Source: Escherichia phage vB_EcoS_SP8. From it: a stretch of DNA of 57,585 bases. The stretch lies in the sequence record MT682705.1; one strand, 5' to 3'. The notes under the pieces are model-generated. The model saw only the letters and a list, made by a program, of their open reading frames with translations, had not been told where the DNA came from and searched no databases. The translations under genes were made by a program, and so were the position numbers. Shown in pieces: positions 24,489-46,366 of this stretch; within the stretch, counting starts at the first letter, position 1; every line of letters starts with the position of its first letter.

Positions 24489-24620
24489 TGTTTATTGTTA
24501 CACGCGTTATTATTTTTTATTTGATTAGTGTGCTATCTATTACATGACTATACTATACCGTCCAGTGTAATTACATCTGTTACTATCCACCTGCCCACTA
24601 TATGCTGTCTATGTATGTGC

Positions 24621-24690
24621 TACCTGGTATTTCCGGCGTGTGCTGTTACCTGGTATTTTCAGCACGCTCGCGCTACCTGGTATTTCCGGC
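24621..24690. repeat. three direct repeats TACCTGGTATTTCCGGC at 26-27 bp spacing
   Basis: copies at about 24621, 24647 and 24674 (middle copy with 3 mismatches); upstream of the early promoter. Confidence 0.6.
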
Positions 24691-24768
24691 ACACCATCTA
24701 CTGCATAGTCCCGGATGTTATTATTATGAAACACAACTAAAAAAGTTCTAAAATATTGCAGATAATAG

Positions 24769-27596: not shown

Positions 27597-28018
27597 GTCT
27601 ACTGACGAGCCAGATTTATAAAGTTAATAAATTCGTATATTTTCGCGTAATGTACGAAATGAAAGGGGGTAAGTGCATGAAAAATAAGGTAAAAAATGTG
27701 TGTATGTGTGTATTTATATAAATTTTATAAAGATTTTTTGTTTTTTTAGTTGTCTACTGACGACCCTACGAGACCCCTTTATAAAATTTATAAATTCCCA
27801 CGTTCCCCCCAACTCTCGAAATTTTCCCTTATTTTTCATACACTTCGCTTCGCCGTTTCGTATGTTGCTGGATCTTTATAAATTGTGCATTTTTTCACCG
27901 ATCTTTATAAATTTGCAATTTCTCACCTTCAGACTGCTGTAATTTTTGCAAAAGCAAAAACTTTGCATATACAAACACCGCAAAATGTCACAATTGCAAA
28001 TAGCAAAAACTTCGCATA
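27597..28018. repeat. cluster of direct repeats in a 1-kb non-coding region
   Basis: GTCTACTGACGA at about 27597 and 27752; GATCTTTATAAATT at about 27871 and 27900; AGCAAAAACTT(T/C)GCATA at about 27953 and 28002; TTTATAAA recurring at least 5 times. Confidence 0.6.
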
Positions 28019-39790: not shown

Positions 39791-40537
39791 ATGCAATTTA
39801 CAACTACCGCTCAAGCAGTTTTGGACACTGGTGTCAAGATGCTTGTGTATGGTGAATCCGGTATGGGTAAGACCATGCTTACAGCAACTCTTCCAAGACC
39901 GTTGCTGATTTCTGCGGAGTCTGGGCTTTTATCTTTAACACCGAATAACATTGCTCGTGTATTTGGTGAAAACAGACCAGATATCTGCTACGATATTCCA
40001 ACCATCACGGTTGAAAATATCCAGGATGTAGAGCAGGCTTATGTTTGGGCGACTAACCCTGCAAACAATCCTGTAGGTGAAGATGGTTTACCGCGCTTTC
40101 AGTCTCTTGCGCTGGATTCACTTACTGAGATTGCTGAAAAGTGCCTTAACAATGCGAAGCGTACTGTGAAAGATCCGCGTCAGGCTTATGGGGATCTTAT
40201 TGAGAAGATGCAAACTTTAGTTCGCGCTTTTCGAGATATCCCTGGACTTAACGTGTACATGGCAGCTAAAATGTCCCGTAACAAGGACGAGTTGACAGGT
40301 ATTACGTCTTACGGTCCTTCTATGCCTGGTGCAAAATTAGGTCCAGAATTACCATACTTTTTTGACGAAGTGTTCAAAATTAGTGTTGGTAAAGACCAAA
40401 ATACTCAAGCAGATTTTCGTTATCTGCTGACCAGACCAGATCTGTCAAATGTATGTAAAGATCGTTCTGGTTCGTTAGAACAGATGGAATATCCACATCT
40501 TGGTGCAATCATTAACAAAATCAAAGGGGTACAATAA
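39791..40537 (+). CDS. RecA-like ATPase (Sak4-like recombination protein)
   Basis: Walker A YGESGMGKT near N-terminus; about 248 aa; followed by SSB-like and nuclease genes. Confidence 0.45.
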   Translation: MQFTTTAQAVLDTGVKMLVYGESGMGKTMLTATLPRPLLISAESGLLSLTPNNIARVFGENRPDICYDIPTITVENIQDVEQAYVWATNPANNPVGEDGLPRFQSLALDSLTEIAEKCLNNAKRTVKDPRQAYGDLIEKMQTLVRAFRDIPGLNVYMAAKMSRNKDELTGITSYGPSMPGAKLGPELPYFFDEVFKISVGKDQNTQADFRYLLTRPDLSNVCKDRSGSLEQMEYPHLGAIINKIKGVQ

Positions 40538-41457
40538 TGGCCGGTTTAGGAATGCAATTTAACGCTGGACAACACGCAGAGCGTCAACACAATAGCTTGA
40601 TGCCAGCTGGTTGGTATGTTGTTCAGATTGTAAACTCTGAGATCAAACCGACTAAAACTCCAGGCGGTGCGCGTCTGAATCTTCAGTTTAAGATTATGCA
40701 GGGTGATTTTGCTGGTCGTGTAATGTTTGGCGGTTACAACGTCAAAAACGCAAACCCTGTCGCTGTACAGATTGCAATGGAAGAACTGGCAGAGCTGTCC
40801 CGTGCTGTTAAAGTTCCAGTCTGGAACGATACTGAACAACTGCACGGTATTCCGTTCAACCTGAAAGTGAAAGTTCGTCAGCAACCTGGCTATGAGCCAA
40901 ACAACGAACCTCAGATTTATCAAGCAATTGATAATATGGAAGGTGTTGTATACGCAACTAAAGCGGATATGGCTAACCTGCCTAAATCAACTCCAGCAGC
41001 GGCAGCACAGTCTCCAGCATTTGGTGGCGGTGCGTTCGGTGGTACTCAGCAGCCACAGCAGCAACCGCAGCAGGGTTTCCCGGGCGCATTTGGGCAGCAG
41101 CCGCAGCAACAGCAGCAGCAACCTCAGACTCAGGGGTTCCAGCAGCAACAACAGCAACAACAGCCGCAGCAGCCGGTACAGCAACAGCAGCAACCGCAGC
41201 AGTCTGGAACAGTTGATTTTAACAGTGCGGCACAATCTCAACCGTGGGCTAATGGTGCGCAGAAGCAGACTCAGCAGCAACCTAACTGGGCAACTCAGCA
41301 GGTACAGCCTGGAGCAGAGCAACCGCAAACTCAAGCTCAGAATACTGGTACTGCTAACCATGCAGAACCTGAAGTCCAGGATGATATCGCTAAAGCAGCT
41401 CAGACCAAGACTCCACCGTGGAAACGTTCCACTGAAGGCGATGACGCTGCACAGTAA
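40537..41457 (+). CDS. putative ssDNA-binding protein with Gln/Pro-rich tail
   Basis: position after Sak4-like gene; internal 50-residue Q/P-rich low-complexity tract; function inferred from context only. Confidence 0.3.
   Translation: MAGLGMQFNAGQHAERQHNSLMPAGWYVVQIVNSEIKPTKTPGGARLNLQFKIMQGDFAGRVMFGGYNVKNANPVAVQIAMEELAELSRAVKVPVWNDTEQLHGIPFNLKVKVRQQPGYEPNNEPQIYQAIDNMEGVVYATKADMANLPKSTPAAAAQSPAFGGGAFGGTQQPQQQPQQGFPGAFGQQPQQQQQQPQTQGFQQQQQQQQPQQPVQQQQQPQQSGTVDFNSAAQSQPWANGAQKQTQQQPNWATQQVQPGAEQPQTQAQNTGTANHAEPEVQDDIAKAAQTKTPPWKRSTEGDDAAQ
41044..41202 (+). repeat. CAG/CAA-rich simple sequence tract encoding poly-Gln/Pro
   Basis: cagcagccacagcagcaaccgcagcag... read directly. Confidence 0.6.
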
Positions 41458-41476
41458 TTAAAAATCATGTTATAAT

Positions 41477-41504
41477 AAAGCTCCTCCGGGAGCTTTATTT
41501 TTCT
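41477..41504 (+). terminator. rho-independent terminator
   Basis: stem AAAGCTCC / GGAGCTTT with 4-nt loop, followed by ATTTTTCT. Confidence 0.6.
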
Positions 41505-42470: not shown

Positions 42471-44474
42471 ATGTTCAAACTACGTGATTATCAGCAAGAA
42501 GCTGTAAACAGTACATTGCGCTATTTCATCAAGCATGGTGAAAAGTCAGGAAATCCTGTTATCTTGTTGCCTACAGGGACTGGTAAGTCCCTTGTAATTG
42601 CTGGTCTATTAAAGACAATTCACGATAATTGGGGTAGTACCCGCATGATGGTAATTACTCACGTAAAAGAATTGATAGACCAGAACCACGATAAATTTAA
42701 GAAGTTGTGGCCTGAAGCACCGACTGGTATTTATAGTGCTGGTATGGGTCGCAAGGATAAGAATGCAATGATAACGTTCGCAGGTATTCAGTCTGTTGCA
42801 AAACAAGCTAAATACTTTGAGGACGTTGATATTATTATAGTGGACGAATGTGACCTTATTAGTCCAAATCAGCAAACAAGTTATCAGAAGTTCTTTGCAC
42901 ATATCCGTGAAAAGAACCCATATGTAAAGATTATCGGTCTTACTGCTACAAGCTGGCGTCTTGGTTTTGGTTCTATTATCAAAGATGACTATGCTCCTAA
43001 TGCTCTATTTGATGAAATCGTATTTAACGCGTGTACTGTAGAGTGCTTCAACTGGTTTATTGATGAAGGTTATCTGGTTCCGTTAGTACCACGTAAAACA
43101 AAGAAAGAGTATGATGTAAGTGGTGTTCATACTCGAGGCGGTGAGTTCATTGAAAGTGAACTTCAGAAGGTTGTAAACGACCCTGATGTAACACGCCATT
43201 TGTTAGATGATGCGATTAGTATTGCGGAAGAAGAGAATAGAATGAGTTGGCTTATCTTTTGTGCTGGTGTAGACCATGCAAAAGATGTAAAAGACTATCT
43301 TAATGAACGCGGTATTAGTTGCGAAGTTGTAACTGGTGACACACCAAAAGCCTTGCGTGACCAGTACCTCATTGACTTTAAAGCTGGTCGTTTGCAGGCA
43401 ATAGCGAACAACAACGTATTGACGACAGGCTTTGACCATCCTGGTCTTGACTTGATAATTGGTATGCGCCCGTCCCAATCTTCCCGCTTATGGGTTCAGA
43501 TGCTTGGACGTGGTACTCGACCTGATTATGCTGATGGTTTTGATTTGACCACAACGGAAGGTCGTTTGCAAGCTATCTCCGCTTCACATAAACAGAACTG
43601 TCTTGTACTAGACTATGCAGGTAATACAAGACGTCTTGGGCCTATTAACGATCCTGTAATTCCTAAGCGTCCAGGGCAGAAAGGAAAGTCCGCTGCACCT
43701 GTTAAAGAATGCCCGGTATGTAAGACCTGGAACCATGCGTCAGTTCGCTATTGTGGTGGGTTAAAACCATTCGATACAAGCAGTATGTCTCATGAAGAAA
43801 TACTCTATCTACAAGGATTAGGATATACCATTACGAATAATAAAGCGTGTCGTGCTGGTTATTGCGGTCATGAGTTTACTTTTGAGAAGAAACTAATGGC
43901 GAGTGCAAGTACGAAAGCTATTATCAAGAATGATTTACCAGTTACAGAAGTGTTGAAAGTTGATATGGTGAGTTACTATCGTCACGAGAACAGAGGTGAC
44001 CGTTCTAAGCCACCAACACTTCGTGTTGACTATCTTTGTGGCTCACAAACTATTCAACAATATATTTGCCTATTCCATACTGGCTTTGCAGGTAAGAAAG
44101 CGCGTAACTGGTGGCGTGAGCATTGCAGCTTGGCAATCCCAGCTAACATTGACGAAGCTCTCAATGTGGTTAGCCAGCTTCGTGTACCGACGCACATTTA
44201 TGTCAACTTGAAGGGTAAGTTCCCCGAAGTGTTGAATAGTTGTTATGACGGTAGTGAGTTCGGTAAGAAAGAAGCAACAAACGAACGTCCGGTTGTACAA
44301 ATTGCAGCAATGAATGGTCTGTCCCAGTTTGGTGGAAGTTATACGAATAAGTTTGATGAAGATGAGCAGACTGATTCCCGTACGACAGTATTGCATTCTA
44401 CGTTTAATCAACCTATTCTTACTGGTAACGGTAAAGAACTACCACCAGACTTTGATGACGACATTCCGTTTTGA
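42471..44474 (+). CDS. SF2 DNA helicase (DEAD/DEAH-like)
   Basis: motif I LPTGTGKS, motif II IVDECD; 667 aa. Confidence 0.7.
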   Translation: MFKLRDYQQEAVNSTLRYFIKHGEKSGNPVILLPTGTGKSLVIAGLLKTIHDNWGSTRMMVITHVKELIDQNHDKFKKLWPEAPTGIYSAGMGRKDKNAMITFAGIQSVAKQAKYFEDVDIIIVDECDLISPNQQTSYQKFFAHIREKNPYVKIIGLTATSWRLGFGSIIKDDYAPNALFDEIVFNACTVECFNWFIDEGYLVPLVPRKTKKEYDVSGVHTRGGEFIESELQKVVNDPDVTRHLLDDAISIAEEENRMSWLIFCAGVDHAKDVKDYLNERGISCEVVTGDTPKALRDQYLIDFKAGRLQAIANNNVLTTGFDHPGLDLIIGMRPSQSSRLWVQMLGRGTRPDYADGFDLTTTEGRLQAISASHKQNCLVLDYAGNTRRLGPINDPVIPKRPGQKGKSAAPVKECPVCKTWNHASVRYCGGLKPFDTSSMSHEEILYLQGLGYTITNNKACRAGYCGHEFTFEKKLMASASTKAIIKNDLPVTEVLKVDMVSYYRHENRGDRSKPPTLRVDYLCGSQTIQQYICLFHTGFAGKKARNWWREHCSLAIPANIDEALNVVSQLRVPTHIYVNLKGKFPEVLNSCYDGSEFGKKEATNERPVVQIAAMNGLSQFGGSYTNKFDEDEQTDSRTTVLHSTFNQPILTGNGKELPPDFDDDIPF

Positions 44475-44481
44475 GGCTTAT

Positions 44482-44721
44482 ATGGCAAAGATGACGTTTA
44501 GAAGTGACGACTATTCACCGGAAGATGGTGAATGGAAGACTTTTAAAGAGTGGGAGGCGTTAGGTTACGGTGTAATTAAAGGAGAAAGAGCTAAACGATT
44601 TATTCATGGTGTAGCAGTTTTTCACGAAAGTCAAGTAATCAATATTGAAGACGAGTTTGAAAATTACATGCGTGAAGAACTACGTGGAATGTATTGTGGG
44701 CCCGAATGGTGGAAGGATTAA
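44482..44721 (+). CDS. hypothetical protein
   Basis: 79-codon ORF starting at ATG (MAKMTF). Confidence 0.35.
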   Translation: MAKMTFRSDDYSPEDGEWKTFKEWEALGYGVIKGERAKRFIHGVAVFHESQVINIEDEFENYMREELRGMYCGPEWWKD

Positions 44722-45541: not shown

Positions 45542-46366
45542 ATGGCTAAAGAGAAAACTCCAGAGCAACTGGAAGCAGAAGAAGCAGCAAAGAAAGCAGC
45601 AAAAGAAGCTGAAGCAAAGAAAAAACGTGAAGCTGAAGAAAAAGCAGCACGTGAATTGCAGGCTAAAGTTGATGCCGCAATGAACGAAGCCACTGCCGGT
45701 TACAATGTGATCGAAGGTGTTGTGTCCGCTGTTAAAGAACAGTTTGACACTCTGCACGAAGGTTCGTTGCTGGACGAAGTTAAAGCAGTTGAGAGCGTAG
45801 TTACCGCTCAACTGAAGACCGCTAAAGAAGGTCTGAAAGCTGTTAAAGCAGCAGTACGTAAAGTTAAAGACAACGATCAACTGAAAACTGCCGTTGCAGC
45901 ATCTGAAGATCTGGTTTCCGGTGTTGAAGCCACTCTGAAAGATGTTAAAGGTCGTGTATCCGCTGCCCGCGAAGCCACTAAAGCCGCTGAAAAAGCGAAA
46001 CTTGACGCTGAACGCGCTGAGAAGAAACGTCTGCAGGACGAAGAGCGTGCTCGTAAAGCAGTAGAACGCGAAGCTAAGAAAGAGCCTGAACAGAACGGTA
46101 TTCGCAAGCCTGGTGTTGGTACTCTGTGCCGTGCTGCATGGGATATCTTTGACGCTGTGACCCTGGAGCTGGGTCAGACTGCACCGATCAGCTACGTTCT
46201 GCCTGTTGCACTGGACAAAGGCCTGAACGAAGCGAACGTTAAAGCGGAATATGCTCGCTGGAAGAAATACATGGGCATTACTGGTCGCGTATCCGTTCCA
46301 GTACCTGCTAATATTGCACAAGCGGCCGCTAACGTAGAAATTCCGTCTCAGAAAACTGCAGAGTAA
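45542..46366 (+). CDS. hypothetical Lys/Ala/Glu-rich helical protein, predicted highly expressed
   Basis: own promoter, RBS GAGGA, strong downstream terminator; codon choice biased to CTG, CGT, GGT, GAA, AAA. Confidence 0.5.
   Translation: MAKEKTPEQLEAEEAAKKAAKEAEAKKKREAEEKAARELQAKVDAAMNEATAGYNVIEGVVSAVKEQFDTLHEGSLLDEVKAVESVVTAQLKTAKEGLKAVKAAVRKVKDNDQLKTAVAASEDLVSGVEATLKDVKGRVSAAREATKAAEKAKLDAERAEKKRLQDEERARKAVEREAKKEPEQNGIRKPGVGTLCRAAWDIFDAVTLELGQTAPISYVLPVALDKGLNEANVKAEYARWKKYMGITGRVSVPVPANIAQAAANVEIPSQKTAE

What the first reader, a model, noticed from the sequence alone, without database searches (positions are those of the whole stretch)
41044..41202. CAG/CAA repeat tract encoding a 50-residue poly-Gln/Pro segment
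A simple-sequence tract lies within the putative SSB gene. Such tracts are prone to replication slippage and could produce length variants of the protein, or act as a flexible linker or low-complexity interaction region.
Basis: seen in the sequence. Interest (0 to 1): 0.35.

Follow-up and report, generated by a model that had tools for sequence, protein, structure and literature searches.

The report
Glutamine-rich flexible linker in phage SSB
The CAG/CAA tract is real and encodes a glutamine/proline-rich stretch of the predicted disordered tail of a phage single-stranded-DNA-binding protein; its length differs between related phages, always in whole codons, which is the ordinary behaviour of such linkers and not a special switch.

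Summary
Observation confirmed. Window 41044..41202 is 53 in-frame codons (residues 170-222) of ORF 40537..41457: 34 Gln (25 CAG, 9 CAA), 8 Pro, no charged residue. This is far above the proteome's Gln background (P~4e-33).

The window is the complete genome of Escherichia phage vB_EcoS_SP8 (Nonagvirus). The gene is a DUF669-type putative SSB. Residues ~20-150 form a confidently predicted OB-like fold; residues 153-306 are predicted disordered. It follows a Sak4-like gene, and ssDNA binding is inferred.

The tract is not a clean microsatellite: the longest perfect CAG run is 3 units. It is still the gene's indel hotspot. In 31 distinct Nonagvirus proteins it spans 39-59 residues (27 alleles), and a second short Gln tract spans 7-16. 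The other 244 residues never change length, and every indel keeps the frame.

Among 150 distant homologues, tails run 0-201 residues, are Ala/Pro/Gln-rich, and nearly all end in a [TV]PPW tip.

Best reading: a length-tolerant disordered spacer tethering conserved Trp motifs to the OB core, analogous to the E. coli SSB linker. New member of a known kind; low-to-moderate interest.

More surprising side finding: the neighbouring helicase ends in DFDDDIPF, the E. coli SSB tip.

The parts
39791..40537 (+). Context: Sak4-like ssDNA-annealing ATPase gene (AAA_24). Its TAA stop (40535-40537) overlaps the SSB ATG (40537-40539) by one base.
   Evidence: Pfam AAA_24 6.8e-23; PHROG 124 Sak4-like 1.4e-54; sequence read.
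40537..41457 (+). DUF669-type putative single-stranded-DNA-binding protein gene (306 aa; GenBank QLF80478.1, SP8_0069, deposited as 'hypothetical protein').
   Evidence: Variation among relatives is mostly at third codon positions, which confirms this reading frame.
40537..40986 (+). N-terminal OB-like core (residues 1-150). Nearly invariant among Nonagvirus relatives.
   Evidence: AF2 pLDDT about 82-95 over residues 21-140 and 80 for 141-150, with topology strand-strand-strand-helix-strand-strand. Foldseek: PrgE E=9.6e-6, bacterial SSBs, PriB, RPA. 0 gap columns and 4 amino-acid-changing columns of 150.
40987..41043 (+). Ala/Gly-rich start of the disordered tail (STPAAAAQSPAFGGGAFGG, residues 151-169). 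Length-invariant.
41044..41202 (+). The finding: Gln/Pro tract 1 (residues 170-222; 34 Q, 8 P, no charged residue). The main indel hotspot of the gene.
41203..41250 (+). Conserved tail motif 1 (SGTVDFNSAAQSQPWA). P236 and W237 are invariant in homologues down to 39% identity.
41251..41283 (+). Gln tract 2 (NGAQKQTQQQP, residues 239-249). Second, smaller indel hotspot: 7-16 residues among relatives.
41284..41334 (+). Conserved tail motif 2 (NWATQQVQPGAEQPQTQ). W251 is invariant.
41335..41406 (+). Polar, mildly acidic segment of the tail (AQNTGTANHAEPEVQDDIAKAAQT). Length-invariant.
41407..41454 (+). C-terminal tip KTPPWKRSTEGDDAAQ. PPW (41413-41421) is the family-wide conserved tip motif.
   Evidence: 142 of 148 homologue representatives with tails of at least 15 residues have a Trp in the last 15 residues; consensus [TV]PPW[AQ][QRK]. 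P294 and W295 are invariant.
41474..41499 (+). Intrinsic-terminator-like hairpin followed by a T-run, directly after the SSB gene.
   Evidence: 11-pair stem. The equivalent site is annotated as a terminator in phage HdSG1.
42471..44474 (+). Context: RadD-like SF2 helicase of the same module. Its last 8 residues, DFDDDIPF (44448-44471), equal the E. coli SSB C-terminal tip.

Best explanation
The tract encodes the central, uncharged Gln/Pro spacer of an intrinsically disordered C-terminal tail of a phage DUF669-type SSB.

Architecture: an OB-like core (residues 1-150), then a ~155-residue low-complexity tail. In the tail, two variable Gln-rich spacers (170-222 and 239-249) separate three conserved Trp-containing short motifs: ...SQPW237, ...QPNW251ATQQVQPG, and the tip TPPW295K.

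Proposed mechanism. The spacer acts as a flexible, soluble tether. It lets the Trp motifs reach partner proteins or neighbouring SSB molecules while the core sits on ssDNA. The likeliest partner is the co-translated Sak4-like annealase, or another member of the Sak4-SSB-nuclease-helicase module. The spacer's Gln/Gly/Pro composition with sparse Phe residues probably also gives weak SSB-SSB contacts (cooperativity), as in the E. coli SSB linker.

Because function depends on composition and approximate length rather than on exact sequence, the imperfect (CAG/CAA/CCG)n DNA gains and loses whole codons by local duplication or deletion (slippage or unequal recombination). Variants within roughly 40-60 residues are tolerated.

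Shown: the tract, its frame, its composition, its in-frame length polymorphism confined to the Gln tracts, the predicted OB core and disordered tail, the family-wide variable tail with conserved PPW tip, and the conserved Sak4 synteny.

Inferred: ssDNA binding, the tether and cooperativity roles, the partner of the tip, and the mutational mechanism.
For: Gene identity: DUF669 35.4 bits against a cut-off of 21. PHROG 6015 SSB at 5.6e-93. AF2 OB-like core with pLDDT about 90, and pLDDT below 50 over residues 153-306. Foldseek hits to PrgE and bacterial SSBs. No canonical SSB OB domain anywhere in the genome by tblastn with E. coli SSB.

Module: Sak4 (AAA_24) lies immediately upstream with an overlapping stop/start. 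The order AAA_24 then DUF669 is kept in a long-tailed homologue at 61% identity. The order AAA_24, DUF669, helicase is kept in a short-tailed metagenomic homologue. In phage HK620, a Sak4-adjacent SSB that its authors assign to DUF669 binds ssDNA, and its last six residues are needed to stimulate Sak4 (PMC5928155).

Length tolerance: in the alignment of 18 Nonagvirus genomes, all 42 codon columns with gaps fall in tract 1 (36) or tract 2 (6), and none in the other 242 codon columns. Every indel is a multiple of 3 and looks like a copy or loss of neighbouring units: CAGCAG, CAGCAGCAA, CAGCAACAA, GTACAGCAACAACCT. Among 31 distinct proteins there are 27 tract-1 alleles of 39-59 residues, while the other 244 residues are length-invariant with only 15 alleles. 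The sister Klebsiella/Escherichia phage clade shows the same pattern: 311, 330 and 337 aa, with gaps only in Gln tracts.

Family level: in 150 representatives at 50% identity or less, tails run 0-201 residues (median 108). Linker composition is A 22.5%, P 19.7%, Q 18.8%; 37 of 148 are at least 25% Gln; 142 of 148 have a Trp within the last 15 residues. W237, W251 and W295 with their flanking Pro are invariant across homologues of 39-68% identity, while the spacers between them are not alignable.

Analogy: the E. coli SSB linker has 56 residues with 17 Gly, 11 Gln, 16% Pro and two aromatic residues. Its length and composition control condensation and tip exposure (PMC12143593). With the low-complexity filter off, tblastn of E. 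coli SSB against the window places that linker on the tract.
Against: No experiment on this protein or its close relatives exists in what I could search. The link to the experimentally tested HK620 SSB could not be reproduced here: BLASTP E=17, profile-versus-sequence E=0.055 at 1% probability, and no Pfam hit for the HK620 protein.

The AF2 model used only 7 sequences, and low pLDDT is a proxy for disorder, not proof of it.

24 of 31 proteins have a tract of 49-54 residues. This could reflect recent common ancestry rather than tolerance bounded by selection.

The tip is not the classical acidic tip ending in an aromatic residue; 11 residues follow the Trp. The analogy with SSB-Ct docking may therefore be wrong in detail.

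The mutational mechanism (slippage versus recombination) is inferred from the form of the indels only.
Confidence: 0.75

Rival explanations
1. The tract is the active driver of phase separation or higher-order cooperativity. Here Gln/Gly/Pro 'spacers' with regularly placed Phe/Trp 'stickers' make the phage SSB form condensates on ssDNA. These might even co-condense with host SSB, whose linker has a similar composition. Tract length would then tune the threshold. This overlaps with the best explanation but gives the tract a primary function rather than a passive one.
For: Nine aromatic residues are spread through an otherwise polar tail, at spacings of 4-44 residues, and residues 170-222 carry no charge. 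The only PDB sequence match of the full protein is the FG-repeat region of Nup98; at E=0.031 it is compositional. In E. coli SSB, linker aromatics and Gly-rich segments are required for condensation, and 'IDL compatibility governs co-condensation' (PMC12143593). Gln-rich linkers with periodic F/W/Y/M recur in distant homologues, for example QQQFQQPV repeats in P0067. 98 of 148 tails carry two or more Trp.
Against: No biophysical data exist. About three quarters of family members have Ala/Pro-rich, acidic or very short tails rather than Gln-rich ones, so Gln richness is not required for the family's core function. The natural range of 39-59 residues, with one allele lacking the GFPGAFG block altogether (L021), argues against tight tuning.
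Confidence: 0.3
2. The tract is a hypermutable contingency locus. Frequent replication slippage would generate protein length variants within a phage population, and these would be selected, for example to escape a host defence that senses the SSB.
For: There are 27 alleles in 31 proteins. The closest relative found differs by one 9-nt deletion. CAG is over-represented in the tract. Substitution diversity is also highest there (pi 0.074 against 0.022 in the OB core).
Against: The longest perfect repeat is 3 units, interrupted throughout by CAA, CCG and other codons. From general knowledge of microsatellites, this is far below the run lengths that give high slippage rates. All changes keep the frame, so there is no on/off switching. 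Lengths cluster at 50-53 residues. No defence-related context is evident. The genomes compared differ by 2-7% elsewhere in the gene, so the indels could have accumulated slowly.
Confidence: 0.05
3. The tract is itself a specific docking site, for example PxxP/QQP-type motifs bound by OB folds or other domains of partner proteins, rather than a spacer.
For: There are eight Pro in QQP/PQQ contexts. A PxxP-OB docking model has been proposed for the E. coli SSB linker; it is summarised in PMC10164576 and PMC7145534.
Against: The tract's sequence is not conserved even at 61-80% identity of the core, whereas the Trp motifs are. For E. coli SSB, peptides carrying increasing amounts of linker bound four partner proteins no better than the tip alone (PMC7145534 abstract).
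Confidence: 0.1
4. The signal is at nucleic-acid level or on another frame or strand: an overlapping gene (minus-strand ORF 40987..41361, 124 aa, or + strand ORF 40892..41461, 189 aa), an RNA element or a regulatory site.
For: Long ORFs exist in other frames, and minus-strand terminator-like hairpins are called inside the tract.
Against: (CAR/CCG)n and its reverse complement contain no stop codon in any frame, so these ORFs (Leu-, Ser- or Arg-rich) follow from composition alone. Outside the tracts, variation is at third positions of the annotated frame: 36 of 39 variable sites in the OB core. There is no Rfam match in the whole window. Promoter-like hits are at the shuffled expectation.
Confidence: 0.02

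Closest known systems
Intrinsically disordered linker (IDL) of E. coli SSB (residues ~114-169) with its C-terminal tip
   Same: The position is the same: between an OB core and a short conserved C-terminal interaction motif. The character is the same: low complexity, uncharged, Gly/Gln/Pro-rich with sparse aromatic residues (17 G, 11 Q, 16% P, W136, F148; PMC12143593). Both are length-variable. With the low-complexity filter off, tblastn aligns the linker to the tract.
   Different: The core is not a PF00436 SSB domain. The phage tail is about three times longer, is Gln-dominated (33% Q) rather than Gly-dominated, and carries three internal or terminal Trp motifs. The tip is TPPWK..., not DDDIPF. 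The similarity is compositional: no DNA match to any E. coli genome was found.
Phage HK620 SSB (HkaK/Abc1), the Sak4-adjacent SSB that its authors assign to DUF669 (Hutinet et al. 2018, PMC5928155)
   Same: The gene sits directly next to sak4. The protein is a proven SSB, and its last six residues (NDYPPF, a Pro-Pro-aromatic ending) are needed for Sak4 binding and stimulation. The PPW tip here is formally similar.
   Different: It is 195 aa with a short, charged tail and no Gln tract. No significant sequence or profile similarity to the window protein could be reproduced, and the current Pfam gives no hit for it. In HK620 the aromatic residue is the very last one; here 11 residues follow it.
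PrgE of plasmid pCF10 (PDB 8s4s/8s4t), an atypical OB-fold SSB
   Same: It is the best structural match to the predicted core: Foldseek E=9.6e-6, TM 0.58 on the target. It is described as a non-typical SSB (PMC11137577).
   Different: Sequence identity is 14-15%. A profile of the family finds no PDB relative by sequence. Whether PrgE has a comparable tail was not examined.
Acidic C-terminal tails of T7 gp2.5 (SSB) and gp4 (helicase-primase), each ending in Phe (my own knowledge, not checked here)
   Same: This is a phage replication module in which short C-terminal tails on the SSB and the helicase mediate protein-protein contacts. Here the helicase carries ...DFDDDIPF and the SSB carries ...TPPWK.
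   Different: The folds and families differ, and T7 gp2.5 has no long Gln-rich linker.
Eukaryotic CAG/CAA-encoded polyglutamine tracts (my own knowledge)
   Same: Mixed CAG/CAA codons encode Gln runs that are polymorphic in length, and CAA interruptions stabilise the repeat.
   Different: Here the runs are short (at most 8 Gln in the window, 11 in JenP1), broken by Pro, and the pure CAG runs are at most 3 units. There is no evidence of expansion dynamics.

Membership tests
Pfam DUF669 (PF05037) phage SSB-like proteins | The N-terminal domain matches the family model above its gathering score. | tested here: met
   35.4 bits against a cut-off of 21, residues 14-116. 5438 homologues at E<=1e-3 among representatives.
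Pfam DUF669 (PF05037) phage SSB-like proteins | OB-fold-like core, as proposed by Kazlauskas et al. 2016 (PMC4889955). | tested here: met
   AF2 five-strand barrel plus helix with pLDDT about 90. Foldseek hits to PrgE, SsbA, PriB and RPA. This is a prediction, not a solved structure.
Pfam DUF669 (PF05037) phage SSB-like proteins | The gene is adjacent to a sak4 (AAA_24) gene, and the genome has no other known SSB. | tested here: met
   tblastn with E. coli SSB finds no OB-domain match in the genome. The small ORF 44482..44721 has only a sub-threshold ArdcN hit.
Pfam DUF669 (PF05037) phage SSB-like proteins | Acidic C-terminal tail (PMC4889955). | tested here: inconclusive
   The last 24 residues hold 4 acidic and 4 basic residues, and the tail overall is nearly uncharged. 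In this clade the conserved tip is [TV]PPW[AQ][QRK], not acidic.
Pfam DUF669 (PF05037) phage SSB-like proteins | Binds single-stranded DNA. | not testable with these tools
   The only experimental support is for the remote HK620 protein, to which no significant similarity was found here.
Bacterial-type SSB (PF00436: OB core + IDL + acidic DDDIPF tip) | PF00436 SSB domain. | tested here: not met
   No PF00436 hit at E<=0.01. There is no tblastn match of the E. coli SSB core.
Bacterial-type SSB (PF00436: OB core + IDL + acidic DDDIPF tip) | Low-complexity Gly/Gln/Pro-rich disordered linker after the core. | tested here: met
Bacterial-type SSB (PF00436: OB core + IDL + acidic DDDIPF tip) | C-terminal acidic tip ending in Ile-Pro-Phe. 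| tested here: not met
   The SSB ends ...TPPWKRSTEGDDAAQ. The DFDDDIPF ending is on the neighbouring helicase instead.
Trinucleotide microsatellite / contingency locus | A long uninterrupted run of one repeat unit. | tested here: not met
   The longest perfect run is 3 CAG units (9-11 nt). TRF gives period 3 at 60% matches.
Trinucleotide microsatellite / contingency locus | Length polymorphism among closely related strains. | tested here: met
   39-59 residues and 27 alleles in 31 proteins.
Trinucleotide microsatellite / contingency locus | A length change switches expression or reading frame. | tested here: not met
   All indels are multiples of 3, and all 31 proteins read through to the same C-terminus.
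Gln-rich / FG-like phase-separating low-complexity domain | Composition: uncharged, Gln-rich, with distributed aromatic residues. | tested here: met
   64% Gln with no charge in 170-222; nine F/W in the tail. Compositional match to the Nup98 FG region.
Gln-rich / FG-like phase-separating low-complexity domain | Demonstrated condensation or self-association. | not testable with these tools

The most novel reading that the evidence does not exclude
The tract would be one tunable spacer of a multivalent tail, with three conserved Pro-Trp motifs separated by Gln-rich spacers. That tail would define a distinct class of SSB C-terminal organisation in Sak4-associated DUF669 SSBs. The SSB would use a PPW tip instead of the acidic tip. 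The canonical host-type tip (DFDDDIPF) would have moved to the module's RadD-like helicase. The host-like Gln/Gly/Pro linker would let the phage SSB co-assemble or co-condense with host SSB. Together these features would let the phage plug its recombination/replication module into, or compete with, the host SSB interaction hub. Natural tract-length variation would then modulate that assembly.
Probability: 0.2. Interest if true: 0.65.

Novelty: new member of a known kind. Interest (0 to 1): 0.3.

Why it matters
By itself the tract is an ordinary example of a disordered, indel-tolerant linker in an SSB. It tells annotators that SP8_0069 and its many 'hypothetical protein' homologues are OB-core plus linker plus tip proteins. 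It also tells them that length differences between isolates are benign.

It gives a natural series of linker lengths (39-59 residues, plus 0-201 across the family). Such a series could be used to test how linker length and composition affect SSB cooperativity, condensation and partner recruitment.

Two by-products matter more. Neither is described in the papers I could search. First, a near-universal [TV]PPW tip on this clade of DUF669 SSBs. Second, a host-SSB-type DD(I/V)PF tip on the adjacent RadD-like helicase in 116 of 120 homologues. Both are directly testable interaction motifs in a widespread phage recombination module, which is also of interest for recombineering.

Tried and rejected
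(1) Link to the experimentally tested HK620 SSB. BLASTP gave E=17, and a family profile against the HK620 sequence gave E=0.055 at 1% probability. Pfam finds nothing for the HK620 protein. The relationship rests on the authors' remote-homology claim only.

(2) PDB by sequence. The full protein hits only the Nup98 FG repeats and a calcium-receptor low-complexity tail, both compositional. A 32-sequence family profile finds no solved relative.

(3) The word-indexed homologue search with the core gave only 7 hits. The exhaustive representative search was needed.

(4) The search for related loci with a family alignment failed because no stretch was conserved enough. Family-wide synteny therefore rests on two look-ups.

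(5) Horizontal origin of the linker from host ssb. blastn ('distant' mode) of the window tail and of the Klebsiella-phage tail against 5,426 E. coli genomes gave no match. The low-complexity filter may hide weak matches.

(6) RNA element. There is no Rfam hit in the window.

(7) Overlapping or antisense ORFs were rejected as compositional by-products.

(8) Compensation between the two Gln tracts was not found: Pearson r = -0.05, p = 0.79.

(9) Literature on an SSB-tip mimic on phage helicases. Nothing relevant turned up in two searches.

Full report
**Observation**

The window is the complete 57,585-bp genome of Escherichia phage vB_EcoS_SP8. The exact protein is GenBank QLF80478.1, 'hypothetical protein SP8_0069'. 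The phage belongs to the genus Nonagvirus (9g-like, Queuovirinae); the gene is 94-97% identical to phages SE1, JenP1, 9g and others.

The interval 41044..41202 is in frame with the + strand ORF 40537..41457 (306 aa). It covers codons 170-222. It encodes TQQPQQQPQQGFPGAFGQQPQQQQQQPQTQGFQQQQQQQQPQQPVQQQQQPQQ. That is 53 residues: 34 Gln (25 CAG, 9 CAA), 8 Pro, 4 Gly, 3 Phe, 2 Thr, 1 Ala and 1 Val, with no charged residue.

Gln makes up 4.4% of the other long ORFs. No other protein in the genome exceeds 10 Gln in any 53-residue window. The binomial tail is about 4e-33.

At the DNA level the tract is only cryptically simple. The longest perfect trinucleotide run is three CAG units. TRF reports the period-3 array at 60% matches. 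CAG is moderately over-used relative to the rest of the genome: 74% against 51%, p = 0.013.

**What the gene is**

- Residues 14-116 match Pfam DUF669 (35.4 bits against a cut-off of 21).
- The whole protein matches PHROG 6015 'single strand DNA binding protein' (5.6e-93).
- AlphaFold2 with a shallow 7-sequence alignment gives a confident barrel over residues ~20-150 (strand-strand-strand-helix-strand-strand, pLDDT about 90). pLDDT is below 50 for residues 153-306.
- Foldseek against the PDB puts the OB-fold SSB-like protein PrgE of plasmid pCF10 first (E = 9.6e-6). Bacterial SSBs, PriB and RPA follow.
- tblastn with E. coli SSB finds no canonical SSB core anywhere in the genome.
- The gene follows a Sak4-like AAA_24 gene whose stop overlaps its start, TAATG at 40535-40539.
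- A Cas4-like nuclease and an SF2 helicase follow downstream.
- The AAA_24-then-DUF669 order recurs in a long-tailed homologue at 61% identity. With the helicase, it also recurs in a short-tailed metagenomic homologue.

Kazlauskas et al. inferred that DUF669 proteins are phage SSBs with diverged OB folds (PMC4889955). Hutinet et al. showed that the Sak4-adjacent protein of HK620, which they assign to DUF669, is a genuine SSB whose last six residues are needed to stimulate Sak4 (PMC5928155).

I could not reproduce any significant similarity between the SP8 protein and the HK620 protein. ssDNA binding by the SP8 protein is therefore inferred from fold, family and context. It is not demonstrated.

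**Variation among relatives**

I aligned the gene from 13 phage records and 5 further viral contigs, 18 genomes in all. Every gapped codon column lies in tract 1 (36 columns) or in a second short Gln tract at residues 239-249 (6 columns). The other 242 codon columns have none.

All indels are multiples of three. They look like gain or loss of neighbouring units: CAGCAG, CAGCAGCAA, CAGCAACAA, GTACAGCAACAACCT. Phage JenP2 carries a second copy of the GFPGAFGQQP block. One viral contig, L021, lacks that block.

Adding members of the 90%-identity clusters gives 31 distinct proteins. Tract 1 spans 39-59 residues in 27 alleles; 24 of the 31 proteins fall within 49-54 residues. Tract 2 spans 7-16 residues in 17 alleles. 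The remaining 244 residues are length-invariant with only 15 alleles.

The closest relative found, cluster-mate P0158, differs from the window tract by a single PQQ deletion. Outside the tracts, changes are almost all synonymous third-position changes. This includes the rest of the 'disordered' tail, which is therefore under purifying selection.

The sister clade of Klebsiella/Escherichia phages behaves the same way: 311, 330 and 337 aa, with gaps only in Gln tracts.

**Family-wide picture**

An exhaustive HMMER search with the core found 5438 homologue representatives. In the best 150, the core is followed by a tail of 0-201 residues, median 108. Linker composition is Ala 22.5%, Pro 19.7% and Gln 18.8%. 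By class, 37 of 148 are at least 25% Gln, 50 are Ala/Pro-rich and 14 are acidic.

Some distant members have even more extreme Gln tracts or tandem QQQFQQPV repeats.

Strikingly, 142 of 148 tails of at least 15 residues have a Trp within the last 15 residues. The consensus is [TV]PPW[AQ][QRK]. In SP8 this is TPPW295K.

Two further Pro-Trp motifs...SQPW237 and ...QPNW251ATQQVQPG, are invariant in homologues of 39-68% identity. The Gln-rich stretches between them cannot be aligned.

The tail is therefore a string of conserved short motifs separated by variable spacers. The finding is the largest of those spacers.

**Mechanism**

The best-supported reading is that the tract is a flexible, uncharged spacer of an SSB linker. 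It tethers the Trp motifs, which are probable docking sites for Sak4 or other module proteins by analogy with HK620, to the DNA-bound core. Its Gln/Gly/Pro-plus-aromatic composition may also contribute weak SSB-SSB contacts.

The analogy is the E. coli SSB linker. That linker has 56 residues, 17 Gly, 11 Gln, 16% Pro, W136 and F148. Its length and composition control condensation and exposure of the tip (PMC12143593). It does not itself add to partner binding (PMC7145534).

With the low-complexity filter off, the best window matches of E. coli SSB are its linker onto this tract and its tip onto the helicase C-terminus. This is compositional resemblance. No DNA similarity to E. coli genomes was found.

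Because such a spacer depends on composition rather than sequence, in-frame indels in the imperfect repeat are tolerated and accumulate.

**Rivals**

- An active condensation domain. This is plausible, not exclusive of the best reading, and untested.
- A hypermutable contingency locus. This is unlikely: at most 3 perfect units, only in-frame changes, and clustered lengths.
- A specific docking site. This is unlikely because the tract is not conserved.
- An overlapping ORF or RNA element. This is rejected: the ORFs follow from composition, the third-position pattern supports the annotated frame, and there is no Rfam hit.

**Comparison and novelty**

The protein works like a bacterial SSB (OB core, disordered linker, tip), but it is not a PF00436 member and lacks the acidic IPF tip. 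It is a member of DUF669.

Length-variable low-complexity linkers in SSBs are well known, so the finding is a new member of a known kind. Two things appear undescribed in the literature I could search (18 DUF669 papers):

- the PPW tip of this clade;
- the fact that the neighbouring RadD-like helicase ends in DFDDDIPF, identical to the last eight residues of E. coli SSB (PDB 1eqq/4mz9). A D(D/E)(I/V/L)PF or closely similar acidic-aromatic ending is present in 116 of its best 120 homologues, and in a distant metagenomic module.

**Verdict**

The tract is ordinary in kind: interest about 0.3. The side observations on the tips deserve a separate look.

Noticed in passing
window 44448..44471 (C-terminus of helicase ORF 42471..44474): The RadD-like SF2 helicase ends in DFDDDIPF, identical to the last 8 residues of E. 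coli SSB (PDB 1eqq/4mz9). Of its 120 best homologues (44-99% identity), 98 end in D(D/E)[IVL]PF and 18 more in a similar acidic-aromatic tip. A distant metagenomic module (L026) ends NDDIPF. The canonical SSB tip thus sits on the helicase, not on the phage SSB. No paper describing this turned up in two searches.
   Followed up: partly
window 41413..41421 (PPW, residues 293-295 of the SSB): A [TV]PPW[AQ][QRK] motif lies within the last ~15 residues in 142 of 148 DUF669 homologue representatives, whatever the tail length (15-201 residues). The published description of DUF669 tails is 'acidic'; this clade's tip is not.
   Followed up: partly
window 41203..41250 and 41284..41334: Two internal Pro-Trp motifs (SQPW237, QPNW251ATQQVQPG) are invariant in homologues down to 39% identity. 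They resemble the C-terminal tip, which suggests a multivalent or internally duplicated tail. 98 of 148 family tails contain two or more Trp.
   Followed up: partly
window 40524..40539: The Sak4 stop codon and the SSB start codon overlap (TAATG), with an AAGGGG ribosome-binding-like site 8 nt upstream. This suggests translational coupling of the two proteins.
   Followed up: no
L013 (Klebsiella phage vB_Kpn_K9PH25C2) SSB gene 1115..2128; also P0008: The sister-clade linker contains GWGQPQQPQ, identical to E. coli SSB residues 135-143. That sequence was recalled from memory; its Gly and Gln counts agree with PMC12143593. The linker also has a second GWGQPQQ copy. blastn against E. coli genomes found no DNA match, so this is convergence or similarity hidden by the low-complexity filter.
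   Followed up: partly
L012 (phage JenP2) and L021 (IMG/VR contig 3300000289_000015), SSB tract: JenP2 carries a second copy of the GFPGAFGQQP block within the tract. L021 lacks the block entirely (tract of 39 residues). Block-level duplication and deletion therefore occur in addition to codon-level indels.
   Followed up: yes
window 41448..41499: A strong intrinsic-terminator-like hairpin (11 pairs plus a T-run, 41474..41499) follows the SSB gene. It overlaps a good sigma-70-like promoter match (10 of 12, with extended TG) at 41448..41476, ahead of the Cas4-like nuclease gene.
   Followed up: no
window 40537..41457: In GenBank this gene (SP8_0069), and most of its Nonagvirus orthologues, are deposited as 'hypothetical protein'. 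Only the RefSeq and PHROG-based records call it an SSB.
   Followed up: yes
window 44482..44721: A small ORF (79 aa) lies after the helicase. It is annotated in phage SE1 as 'ssDNA-binding domain-containing protein'. It has only a sub-threshold match to the ArdC N-terminal domain (21.1 bits against a cut-off of 22.6).
   Followed up: partly
window 27696..27927, 24619..24692 and 45572..45655: TRF also reports an AT-rich cluster of short repeats with a 29-nt direct repeat (27871..27927), a 27-nt repeat of 2.8 copies (24619..24692), and a GAA/GCA-rich 9/12/24-nt repeat (45572..45655). None were examined.
   Followed up: no
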